Below, piece by piece: positions 56,844 through 57,667 of a stretch of DNA of 64,000 bases. The notes beneath the pieces are model-generated. The model searched no databases. It was not told the DNA's origin and was given only the letters and a program-made list of their open reading frames with translations. Origin of the DNA: Acidimicrobiales bacterium (GTDB lineage Bacteria; Actinomycetota; Acidimicrobiia; Acidimicrobiales; Bin134); contig OZ241383.1 of the NCBI GenBank assembly GCA_965200775.1, positions 1,141,008 through 1,205,007 of the forward strand, written 5' to 3'. How positions within the stretch are numbered: position 1 is the first letter of the stretch; each line of letters opens with the position of its first letter. The position numbers and the translations under genes are program-made.

Positions 56844-57667
56844 GTGACCTTCCTTCCTGCGCTCGAGTACCCCAGCCACCAAGCGGGCGCTGCGATCCTC
56901 TACACAGCCGACTGCTTGCAGGCGATGGCCGGCCTTCCCGAGGGCTGCGTCGACATGGTGTTTGCCGACCCGCCGTACAATCTGTCCAACGACGGTACGA
57001 CCGTTCATGCCGGTCGGCGGGTCAGCGTGAACAAGGAAGGCTGGGACCGCAGCCAGGGGGCCGAGGCGGACTTTGAGTTTCACAGTGCGTGGATCGACGC
57101 GTGCCGTCGCCTACTCAAGTCTGATGGAACATTGTGGGTGTCTGGCACTTATCATAGTATCTTCGCGTGCGGACACGCTCTTCAGCTACTGGGCTTTCGT
57201 GTGTTGAACGACATCGCTTGGTACAAGCGGAACCCTCCGCCAAATCTTGGACGAAGGATGTTCACAGCCGCGCACGAGACTCTGATCTGGGCGAGCCGGT
57301 CCGCGAAGTCTCGACACACCTTCAACTATGACGCGATGCGCGACGGAGACTTTCCCGGCGACATCCTCAAGAACCCGGGCAAGCAGATGCATTCTGTCTG
57401 GGCCATAACCCCCCCCCCCCCCGGGAGAAGCGCTACGGCAAACATCCGACCCAGAAACCCGAAGCGCTACTTGACCGAATCGTCCGCGCCAGCACGAACC
57501 CGGGCGACCTGGTCCTCGACCCGTTCGCCGGCTCCGGTACAACTGGCGTGGTTGCGCTGCGGAACCAGCGACGCTTCATCGGCATCGAGCAGGACGGCGA
57601 GTATTGCAGGCGCTTCGCCATTCCACGCCTCAACGATGAGGCCGCCTCCCTCTTCGCAGACAGCTGA
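56844..57667 (+). pseudogene. Beta-class DNA methyltransferase (N6-adenine or N4-cytosine; DPPY ... HPTQKP ... DPFAGSGTT), frameshifted at a C14 tract
   Basis: Frame 0 gives ..[19 protein letters not shown], then nonsense. The other frame from 57425 gives [44 protein letters not shown]...FADS* (stop 57665-57667). Confidence 0.85.
57409..57422 (+). repeat. Homopolymeric C14 tract inside the methyltransferase gene
   Basis: Counted directly: acc, then 10 c, then cc. A run of 12 or 15 C would restore the reading frame. Confidence 0.95.

What the first reader, a model, noticed from the sequence alone, without database searches (positions are those of the whole stretch)
57409..57422. C14 homopolymer inside the restriction-modification methyltransferase: OFF-state frameshift, candidate phase-variable switch
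The methyltransferase reads correctly up to [10 protein letters not shown] and again from [21 protein letters not shown], but in different frames. The only thing between them is a run of 14 C. 12 or 15 C would give an intact enzyme.

Such tracts are classic slipped-strand switches of methyltransferases in Neisseria, Haemophilus and Helicobacter. As far as I know they have not been described in high-GC actinobacteria. A homopolymer sequencing error is the trivial alternative.
Basis: partly seen in the sequence, partly recalled or inferred. Interest (0 to 1): 0.6.

Follow-up and report, generated by a model that had tools for sequence, protein, structure and literature searches.

The report
Variable poly-C tract breaking a methyltransferase
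A run of 14 C's really does break the reading frame of a DNA methyltransferase in a sponge-type actinobacterium; the same spot differs between near-identical strains, and related restriction-modification operons in three phyla carry similar long G/C runs, so it looks like a slippage-prone switch, though no in-frame (ON) copy has been seen and this strain's partner nuclease is also broken.

Summary
C14 sits at 57409-57422 and is the only homopolymer of 9 or more bases in 64 kb. It separates two correctly reading halves of a PF01555 beta-class N6-adenine methyltransferase; 15 or 12 C restore the frame.

In favour:
- The site is the most variable spot among near-identical strains: C14 in the window and in SRR33960552, C8+TCACTT in SRR33960554, and C10+TCACTT in a 97.6%-identical gene copy elsewhere.
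- Homologous M+R operons in other Acidimicrobiia, Acidobacteriota and Armatimonadota carry G9-G18 tracts at five different positions: promoter, 5' CDS, mid CDS, 3' CDS and the M/R junction. Two co-occurring strains have G14 and G18.

Against:
- None of the four alleles is in frame.
- C14 has the same length in two haplotypes.
- The cassette lies in a decayed low-GC island.
- This strain's MutH/Sau3AI-like nuclease has a private 1-nt deletion; sister strains have it intact.

Homopolymer switching is already known in high-GC actinobacteria (M. tuberculosis). The best reading is a hypermutable contingency-type tract in a Type II, probably GATC, R-M cassette that is OFF here and probably being lost. 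A plain pseudogene remains a strong rival. Read-level tract lengths and GATC methylation would decide.

The parts
57409..57422 (+). C14 homopolymer, the frameshifting tract inside the methyltransferase gene
   Evidence: Alleles at the same site: C14 in L186, C8+TCACTT in L187, C10+TCACTT in L001.
56844..57408 (+). Methyltransferase N-terminal part (frame 1): LYTADC, motif IV DPPY, target-recognition region, ending ...SVWAI(T)
   Evidence: The closest solved relative is CcrM 6pbd (E 1.2e-63).
57423..57667 (+). Methyltransferase C-terminal part (frame 3): [12 protein letters not shown], motif [10 protein letters not shown], stop TGA 57665-57667
56844..57728 (+). ORF as assembled (294 aa from the GTG; 267 aa from ATG 56925). 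Its out-of-frame tail overlaps the nuclease start by 59 nt.
   Evidence: Gene calls on L186 and L187 give the same 267-aa product.
57670..58295 (+). MutH/Sau3AI-like restriction endonuclease gene, split into two frames in this window. The ATG lies 2 nt after the methyltransferase stop.
   Evidence: The repaired protein aligns colinearly with intact homologues.
58020..58021 (+). Site of the 1-nt deletion (TCGGCG to TCGCG) that frameshifts the nuclease. It is private to this window; L186 and L187 have the G and a 208-aa intact gene.
55172..64000 (.). Low-GC island (54-65% GC against about 66%) that truncates an fdsA-like gene at 55171. It carries DUF4268, the R-M pair, a DUF4143 fragment with an in-frame stop, a NYN fragment, an IS1595-type element and a split DUF222 gene.

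Best explanation
The C14 run is a genuine, mutation-prone homopolymer inside a CcrM/DpnA-like beta-class N6-adenine methyltransferase. This gene and a MutH/Sau3AI-like nuclease form a two-gene Type II restriction-modification cassette whose target is probably GATC. The cassette sits on a horizontally acquired island in a sponge-type Acidimicrobiia chromosome.

Proposed mechanism:
- Slipped-strand mispairing during replication changes the number of C's.
- With 15 or 12 C, a full-length enzyme with its AdoMet-binding motif is made.
- With 14 C, translation leaves the frame after [10 protein letters not shown]. It loses motif I and runs 59 nt over the nuclease start codon.
- The nuclease ATG lies 2 nt after the methyltransferase stop and has no obvious Shine-Dalgarno sequence. 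Nuclease translation is therefore probably coupled to in-frame methyltransferase translation, so a frameshift would silence both genes together.

In this window the switch is OFF, and this strain has also lost the nuclease through a private 1-nt deletion. Here the cassette is most likely locked off or on its way to loss.

Shown: the tract, the frames, allelic variation at the site, recurrence of tracts in homologous operons, and the nuclease deletion.

Inferred: slippage as the cause, GATC specificity, translational coupling, and any adaptive role.
For: - The tract and the repair lengths are confirmed.
- The site is a hot spot. Four of the 8 mismatches between the window and L187 over 6.5 kb lie in the tract.
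- L001 shares the gene core, with only 4 differences in about 690 bp outside the junction, yet has C10+TCACTT.
- Homologous M+R operons carry long G tracts at five distinct positions:
  - promoter: L183 G14 at 908x coverage and L184 G18 at 132x, from the same sample, with GAATATC-Gn-TAG[G/C]AT conserved inside an otherwise diverged 300 bp;
  - 5' CDS: L002 G10, L003 G11, L174 G14;
  - 3' CDS: L013 G15;
  - M/R junction: nine Acidobacteriota and Armatimonadota loci with G9-G15, plus an interrupted G7AG5. Several are short-read MAGs.
- Enrichment: 16 runs of 9 or more bases in 0.34 Mb of operon zone against 8 in 0.97 Mb elsewhere, p=3e-5.
- Core genes of the window are intact by full-length Pfam coverage, so the assembly is not generally frameshift-prone.
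- Partner nucleases in relatives are MutH/Sau3AI-like or DpnII family, both GATC cutters.
Against: - No ON allele was observed. C14 (window, L186), C8+TCACTT (L187) and C10+TCACTT (L001) are all out of frame. So are the assembled CDS tracts in L002, L003, L174 and L013.
- C14 is identical in two haplotypes that each carry about 5 private SNPs, which argues against very fast length change or for a shared read set.
- The two alleles within this species have equal total length and differ by 4 base changes, not by a length step.
- The island holds at least 7 broken genes.
- GATC is not depleted in the host (O/E 0.86).
- An intact nuclease alongside an OFF methyltransferase in L186 and L187 needs extra assumptions, such as coupling, a second GATC methylase, or recoding.
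- Tract lengths of 10-18 in long-read assemblies can be off by one.
Confidence: 0.5

Rival explanations
1. Plain pseudogene. The R-M cassette is a decaying remnant. A pre-existing short C run (C9 in ACC CCC CCC CTC) slipped once and killed the gene, and the tract has since drifted neutrally to C14. There is no ongoing, useful switching.
For: - All four alleles are out of frame.
- Both alleles in this species share the same -1 frame, as if the frameshift predates their split.
- The window's nuclease is also frameshifted, and the island has at least 7 disrupted genes while core genes are intact.
- GATC is not depleted.
Against: - Apart from the tract, the methyltransferase has no other lesion, and the repaired protein matches PF01555 and CcrM end to end.
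- The nuclease is intact in two sister strains.
- Homologous operons with intact genes keep long tracts at conserved positions, with length differences between strains. This is hard to explain by decay alone.
Confidence: 0.3
2. Assembly or sequencing error. The true modal length is 15 C and the methyltransferase is simply intact.
For: - Relatives come from low-to-high coverage long-read assemblies with names of the form ctgN_NNx_l.
- Long homopolymers are the main indel error class of such data (established knowledge).
- Four of the six CDS tracts in the family (the window's included) would be repaired by +1.
Against: - Two different assemblies (the window and the Logan contig of SRR33960552) both give exactly 14.
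- A third sample gives C8+TCACTT, also 14 nt in total, where the run is only 8 long and less error-prone.
- No other homopolymer differs between the assemblies over 6.5 kb.
Confidence: 0.1
3. Recoding. The DNA is fixed out of frame, but active enzyme is made by RNA-polymerase slippage on the C run or by -1 ribosomal frameshifting on C CCC CCC. This would give a low, set level of methyltransferase.
For: - Both alleles in this species need the same -1 correction, and both contain at least 7 consecutive C, a perfect X XXY YYZ heptamer.
- The nuclease is intact in sister strains that carry an out-of-frame methyltransferase, which would otherwise be dangerous.
Against: - No significant downstream stimulatory structure was found (z -1.4).
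- L001 and L003 need the opposite shift.
- Efficient transcriptional slippage is established mainly for A/T runs (established knowledge).
- There is no direct evidence.
Confidence: 0.1

Closest known systems
[quoted passage not shown]
   Same: A simple-sequence repeat inside the methyltransferase ORF sets the reading frame. The partner nuclease is often inactive. The tract varies between strains.
   Different: Here the enzyme is a beta-class Type II methyltransferase with a separate MutH-like nuclease. It is not a Mod/Res complex, in which Res depends on Mod. No ON allele, switching rate or regulon has been shown. The host is an uncultured sponge-type Acidimicrobiia.
Poly-G/C phase-variable Type II/IIG R-M genes of Helicobacter pylori and Campylobacter jejuni (cj0031, PMC4889913; H. 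pylori methylome PMC3936762)
   Same: A homopolymeric G/C tract in the coding sequence of a Type II-class restriction-modification gene gives ON/OFF frames.
   Different: Those are AT-rich, host-adapted pathogens with many contingency loci. cj0031 is a single fused R-M polypeptide. Here the genome has 66% GC and otherwise lacks runs of 9 or more in the 64 kb, and M and R are separate genes.
[quoted passage not shown]
   Same: The host is a high-GC actinobacterium, and C/G homopolymer indels reversibly frameshift genes. This shows that the mechanism operates in the phylum.
   Different: The M. tuberculosis tracts are short (about 7-9 nt), switch more slowly (PMC11868660), and the named cases (glpK, ESX-1, frd) are not restriction-modification genes.
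CcrM / DpnA (M2.DpnII) family of beta-class N6-adenine methyltransferases, with DpnII or MutH/Sau3AI-type GATC nucleases
   Same: - Motif order is IV (DPPY) before I (FxGxG).
- The best solved relative is CcrM 6pbd (1e-63), followed by M.MboIIA and DpnA.
- Partner nucleases in relatives are MutH/Sau3AI-like or DpnII family.
   Different: It lacks the CcrM C-terminal domain and scores far below the CcrM equivalog cut-off (256 against 830 bits). Specificity has not been measured. None of the characterised members is known to me to carry a homopolymer switch.

Membership tests
Beta-class N6/N4 DNA methyltransferase (Pfam PF01555) | Full-length match to the family profile, with motif IV (D/S)PPY upstream of motif I FxGxG | tested here: met
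   The repaired (15 C) protein matches PF01555 over 1-217/221, E 1.8e-59. DPPY and DPFAGSGTT are visible. CcrM 6pbd scores 1.2e-63.
Beta-class N6/N4 DNA methyltransferase (Pfam PF01555) | Uninterrupted ORF encoding both motifs | tested here: not met
   As assembled, motif I is in a different frame from motif IV. The same holds in L186, L187 and L001.
Beta-class N6/N4 DNA methyltransferase (Pfam PF01555) | Methylates a defined target (inferred GATC, m6A) | not testable with these tools
   This is inferred only from DPPY and from the GATC-type partner nucleases (MutH/Sau3AI, DpnII) in relatives.
Type II restriction-modification system | Adjacent, co-oriented, separate methyltransferase and endonuclease genes | tested here: met
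   The methyltransferase stop is at 57665-57667 and the nuclease ATG at 57670. The nuclease matches MutH PF02976 and the Sau3AI NCBIfam model. The arrangement is the same in L002, L003, L174, L175 and L183.
Type II restriction-modification system | Both genes intact | tested here: not met
   In the window, M is frameshifted at C14 and R by a 1-nt deletion after 58020. R is intact in the sister strains L186 and L187.
SSR-mediated phase-variable (contingency) locus | A simple-sequence repeat long enough to slip (G/C of 9 or more) within the ORF or promoter | tested here: met
   C14 lies within the ORF and is the only run of 9 or more in 64 kb.
SSR-mediated phase-variable (contingency) locus | Repeat-number change switches between a full-length and a truncated product | tested here: met
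   In-silico lengths 11-17 give an intact protein at 12 and 15, and two different truncated or readthrough frames otherwise.
SSR-mediated phase-variable (contingency) locus | Tract differs between closely related strains or within a population | tested here: inconclusive
   The site is polymorphic: C14, C8+TCACTT and C10+TCACTT. However, C14 is identical in two haplotypes, and the within-species alleles differ in sequence rather than total length. Read-level heterogeneity cannot be examined here. For a homologous operon, G14 and G18 occur in co-occurring strains.
SSR-mediated phase-variable (contingency) locus | Both ON and OFF states occur in nature | tested here: not met
   None of the 4 alleles at this site is in frame, and none of the 4 further CDS-tract relatives is in frame as assembled.
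SSR-mediated phase-variable (contingency) locus | High-frequency, reversible switching | not testable with these tools
   This needs read-level or culture data.
Phasevarion (methyltransferase switch controlling a regulon) | Switching changes genome-wide methylation and the expression of several genes | not testable with these tools
   No methylome or expression data are available. The window holds 347 GATC sites.
Programmed -1 ribosomal frameshift site | Slippery heptamer X XXY YYZ followed by a stimulatory RNA structure | tested here: inconclusive
   The heptamer C CCC CCC is present. The 98 nt downstream fold no better than shuffles (z -1.42).

The most novel reading that the evidence does not exclude
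Two-gene GATC-type restriction-modification cassettes (CcrM/DpnA-like methyltransferase plus a MutH- or DpnII-type nuclease) of uncultured, non-pathogenic bacteria in at least three phyla (Acidimicrobiia sponge symbionts, Acidobacteriota, Armatimonadota) have repeatedly and independently acquired long G/C homopolymers. These lie in the promoter, at the 5' end, inside, at the 3' end or at the M/R junction of the operon. If so, stochastic ON/OFF switching, or switching between separate and fused M-R proteins, of classical Type II systems would be a widespread defence or epigenetic bet-hedging strategy outside host-adapted pathogens. The window's C14 would be one OFF-state example of it.
Probability: 0.35. 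Interest if true: 0.75.

Novelty: new member of a known kind. Interest (0 to 1): 0.5.

Why it matters
Repeat-driven switching of DNA methyltransferases is well documented. The documented cases are almost all Type I and Type III systems of host-adapted pathogens. Published surveys cover Types I and III (PMC5909438, PMC7383803). A 2025 review of restriction-modification biology mentions phase variation only for those types (PMC12707154).

If the tract in this window and its relatives are real switches, three things follow:
- Classical two-gene Type II systems, whose loss of methylation should be lethal, can also be phase-varied. That raises the question of how the nuclease is silenced at the same time.
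- The strategy would extend to uncultured environmental and symbiotic lineages, including high-GC genomes that otherwise purge homopolymers.
- Methylation motifs seen as "partially modified" in metagenome epigenomics would have a simple genetic explanation.

If it is only a pseudogene, it is still a clean example of how homopolymers act as the first point of failure when an acquired defence island decays.

Tried and rejected
- **Exact-DNA scan of JGI metagenomes** for both tract flanks with a variable gap found nothing. A protein-pattern scan of metagenome contigs found only relatives of 73% identity or less, none with a tract at this position.
- **Viral contigs** held only relatives of 27-29% identity, so this is not a phage gene.
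- **Genome collection (GTDB representatives)** does not hold the window's genome. The best hits are 70-72% identical Acidimicrobiales MAGs.
- **Exact look-ups** of the window's 294-aa and 164-aa ORFs failed. The locus was finally reached through the neighbouring DUF4268 protein.
- **dN/dS between the window and L001** was abandoned. Outside the recombination junction there are only 4 differences.
- **Contig ends of short-read relatives** were checked for assemblies broken at hidden tracts. None was found.
- **Promoter and terminator scan** around the operon gave no promoter-like site and one terminator-like hit, no more than the shuffles give.
- **Rfam scan** of the window gave no hits.
- **Canonical -1 frameshift signal:** there is no significant downstream structure.
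- **Tract as a boundary of a mobile cassette:** rejected, because the positions differ from promoter to mid-gene.
- **Long-read artefact as the source of the family's tracts:** rejected, because several tract-bearing loci are MEGAHIT or SPAdes short-read MAGs.

Full report
**1. The observation**

Positions 57409-57422 are 14 consecutive C's in the context ATAA-C14-GGGAGAAG. Frame 1 from GTG 56844 encodes a typical N-terminal half of a beta-class methyltransferase (LYTADC, DPPYNL...[14 protein letters not shown]). It then runs out of frame to a stop at 57728. Frame 3 encodes the rest ([13 protein letters not shown]...DPFAGSGTT...) up to TGA 57665-57667.

Simulating tract lengths 11-17 gives an intact 273 or 274-aa protein only at 12 and 15 C. 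The 15-C version matches Pfam PF01555 over 1-217/221 (E 1.8e-59). It also reproduces the 8-residue spacing between VW and EK found in homologues.

The tract is far beyond chance. The 64 kb contain 25 C-runs of length 6, none of 7-13 and this one of 14, against about 14 runs of 7 and 0.0075 of 14 expected from composition. This genome avoids homopolymers.

**2. The gene and its surroundings**

The closest solved relative is CcrM (6pbd, E 1.2e-63), followed by M.MboIIA and DpnA. The NCBIfam CcrM model is hit far below its cut-off. The enzyme is therefore a CcrM/DpnA-like N6-adenine methyltransferase without the CcrM C-terminal domain.

Two nucleotides after its stop begins a MutH/Sau3AI-like endonuclease gene (57670-58295). 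In the window this gene is also split between two frames. The repaired protein aligns colinearly, at 48-57% identity, with intact neighbours of homologous methyltransferases.

In other relatives the partner is a DpnII-family nuclease (PF04556). MutH, Sau3AI and DpnII all act at GATC, so GATC m6A is the most likely specificity. This is an inference. GATC is not depleted in the host (O/E 0.86 in the core and 1.02 in the island).

The pair lies on a low-GC island (about 55.2-64 kb) that truncates an fdsA-like gene at 55171. The island contains:
- a DUF4143 fragment with an in-frame stop;
- a NYN fragment;
- a second methyltransferase-HNH gene and an IS1595 transposase, both frameshifted;
- a DUF222 gene split by that IS.

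Large core genes have full-length Pfam coverage (FTHFS 2-556/556, DAO+GCV_T, FGGY, Nuo51). The assembly is therefore not generally frameshift-prone. The host is a sponge-type Acidimicrobiia: the window's FTHFS is 92% identical to proteins named Candidatus Poriferisocius sp. or Acidimicrobiia bacterium, and the source contig is 3,144,089 nt.

**3. Population evidence at the site itself**

The neighbouring DUF4268 protein led to three independent Logan assemblies of SRA runs that carry the same island at 99.83-99.88% identity.

| Locus | Source | Tract | Frame | Nuclease |
|---|---|---|---|---|
| Window | 3.14-Mb contig | C14 | -1, out of frame | 1-nt deletion |
| L186 | SRR33960552 | C14 | -1, out of frame | intact, 208 aa |
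| L187 | SRR33960554 | C8+TCACTT (14 nt in total) | -1, out of frame | intact, 208 aa |
| L188 | SRR33960553 | contig ends at 56976, before the tract | n/a | n/a |
| L001 | ERZ25068043, 53% GC | C10+TCACTT | +1, out of frame | none adjacent |

- Four of the 8 mismatches between L187 and the window lie in the tract.
- L001 is an 8.6-kb contig of a different organism. Its methyltransferase core is 97.6% identical, with only 4 differences in about 690 bp outside the recombination junction.
- C9+TCACTT would read AITPPLTWEKRYG. Its W matches several homologues, so this is the likely ancestral in-frame state.
- The site is thus the most variable spot of the locus, but none of the four alleles is in frame. 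C14 is shared unchanged by two haplotypes that each carry about 5 private SNPs.
- The window lacks one G after 58020 (TCGGCG to TCGCG). This deletion is private to the window, as are four SNPs. The nuclease frameshift is therefore probably a real, recent mutation of this strain.

**4. Family-wide evidence**

I scanned the 174 loci fetched up to that point (1.29 Mb) for G/C runs of 9 or more. Counted over the 173 sequences with a methyltransferase match (the window and later loci included), 16 such runs fall in the 0.34 Mb around the operon (from 300 bp upstream of the methyltransferase match to 1 kb beyond it) and 8 in the remaining 0.97 Mb (p=3e-5, not corrected for shared ancestry). The tracts occupy five distinct positions.

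| Position | Loci and tract lengths |
|---|---|
| Promoter region | L183 G14 (908x) and L184 G18 (132x) |
| 5' end of the methyltransferase ORF | L002 G10, L003 G11, L174 G14 |
| Mid ORF | window C14, L001 C10 |
| 3' ORF | L013 G15 |
| M/R junction | L056 G13, L078 G14, L066 G7AG5, L068 G10, L074 G9, L069 G10, L070 G10, L073 G15, L081 G13 |

- **Promoter tracts.** L183 and L184 are two strains of one sample. Their flanks are 98-99.8% identical, and GAATATC-Gn-TAG[G/C]AT is conserved within an otherwise diverged 300 bp.
- **5' tracts.** They lie just before the conserved ASLYVGDC, whose codons differ synonymously between loci. The tract must therefore be translated.
- **Junction tracts.** The loci belong to Acidobacteriota and Armatimonadota, and several are short-read MAGs. 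Tract length decides whether the methyltransferase stops within a few codons, reads into the nuclease gene out of frame, or fuses to it in frame. L070 and L073 are assembled as fusions.

In each 12.7-kb locus the operon tract is the only long run. This recurrence at different positions, in operons with intact genes, is hard to explain by decay or by artefact. It is the strongest support for a switch-like role. All four further CDS tracts are out of frame as assembled. With lengths of 10-15 in long-read assemblies, an error of one base cannot be excluded.

**5. Mechanism**

- **Best-supported reading (confidence about 0.5).** The tract is a slippage-prone contingency-type repeat that sets the methyltransferase frame. 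Because the nuclease ATG sits 2 nt after the in-frame stop, and the -1 frame reads 59 nt across it, a frameshift probably also suppresses nuclease translation. This is an inference. In this strain the system is OFF and the nuclease has since been hit by a private deletion, so it is likely being lost.
- **Plain pseudogene (about 0.3).** Favoured by the absence of any ON allele, the shared -1 frame of both alleles in this species, and the decayed island.
- **Assembly error (about 0.1).** Weakened because two assemblers give 14 and a third sample gives C8+TCACTT with the same total length.
- **Recoding by transcriptional or ribosomal slippage (about 0.1).** This would explain intact nucleases beside out-of-frame methyltransferases. 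There is no stimulatory structure (z -1.4) and no direct evidence.

**6. Comparison with what is known, and novelty**

Repeat-driven methyltransferase switching is well known for Type III and Type I systems (PMC5909438, PMC7383803) and for a Type IIG enzyme of C. jejuni (PMC4889913). Homopolymer phase variation is described in the high-GC actinobacterium M. tuberculosis (PMC10334774). An SSR-bearing mod gene of Corynebacterium casei is listed in PMC5909438.

Full-text searches found no paper on homopolymer tracts in Acidimicrobiia R-M genes or in two-gene GATC-type Type II cassettes. I rate the window's feature a new member of a known kind. The family-wide pattern is the more interesting lead.

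**7. Verdict**

Interest is 0.5: a specialist would not be surprised by the mechanism. The taxon, the Type II context, the recurrent independent tracts and the puzzling all-OFF state make it worth a read-level and methylome check, for which public runs exist.

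Noticed in passing
window 57670-58295 (deletion after 58020): The MutH/Sau3AI-like nuclease downstream of the methyltransferase is itself frameshifted, by loss of one G (TCGGCG to TCGCG). The deletion is private to this window. Two independent assemblies of sister strains (L186, L187) encode an intact 208-aa enzyme.
   Followed up: yes
L183 2797-2810 and L184 2676-2693: Two co-occurring strains (908x and 132x) of a 68%-GC genome carry G14 and G18, about 200-325 bp upstream of an intact homologous M+R operon. 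GAATATC-Gn-TAG[G/C]AT is conserved inside an otherwise strongly diverged 300-bp stretch, while the flanks are 98-99.8% identical. It looks like a promoter-spacer tract next to a -10-like TAGNAT.
   Followed up: partly
L002 5989-5998, L003 5970-5980, L174 5912-5925, L013 6705-6719: Other Acidimicrobiia MAGs (Ca. Poriferisodalaceae, Ca. Aldehydirespirator) carry G10-G15 tracts inside the homologous methyltransferase ORF, at the 5' end or in the 3' part, next to intact nucleases. All are out of frame as assembled.
   Followed up: partly
L056, L066, L068, L069, L070, L073, L074, L078, L081 (tracts about 45-90 bp after the end of the methyltransferase match): In Acidobacteriota and Armatimonadota the homologous operon has a G9-G15 tract (once G7AG5) at the M/R junction. 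Tract length decides whether the methyltransferase stops, overlaps the nuclease gene out of frame, or is fused in frame to it. L070 (G10) and L073 (G15) are assembled as 550-aa M-R fusions.
   Followed up: partly
L001 2772-8629 (minus strand); tracts at 3690-3704 (G15) and 5904-5919 (C16): Next to the close methyltransferase copy lies an array of three tandem paralogous modules of about 430 aa (DTPQMDDAVAAVKNARV.IMNPPFT...) following an N-terminal methyltransferase-like gene. Two of the three copies are split by long homopolymers. There is no Pfam match for the intact third copy (the only module scanned) or the N-terminal gene. This may be a second, cassette-type variable methyltransferase system.
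   Followed up: no
window 60578-63201: An IS1595-type element with perfect 26-nt terminal inverted repeats carries a methyltransferase-HNH passenger gene and the transposase, each broken by a frameshift. It is inserted in a DUF222/HNH gene (60109-60577 and 63199-63895). An uninterrupted copy of the element it interrupts (over 98.6% identical) lies at window 32593-33913.
   Followed up: partly
window 50894-55171: The formate-dehydrogenase-like genes look rearranged. A C-terminal molybdopterin part (Pfam model from position 100) lies upstream at 50894-52591. It is followed by a NuoE/F-like gene and then by the N-terminal Fe-S part of the alpha subunit, which is cut off at 55171 exactly where the low-GC island begins.
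   Followed up: no
window 56899-57642 and L001 1969-2714: Only the internal 746 bp of the methyltransferase gene is shared (97.6% identity, over 99% beyond the first 15 codons) between a 66%-GC and a 53%-GC genome with unrelated flanks. This suggests recent transfer or gene conversion of a gene-internal segment that includes the tract.
   Followed up: partly
L004 1-70 and 2300-2383: A homologous methyltransferase + DpnII cassette is flanked on both sides by the same tRNA-3'-end-like sequence (GGTTCAAATCCTGCCCCCGCCAC). This is the pattern expected of an island integrated at a tRNA gene.
   Followed up: no
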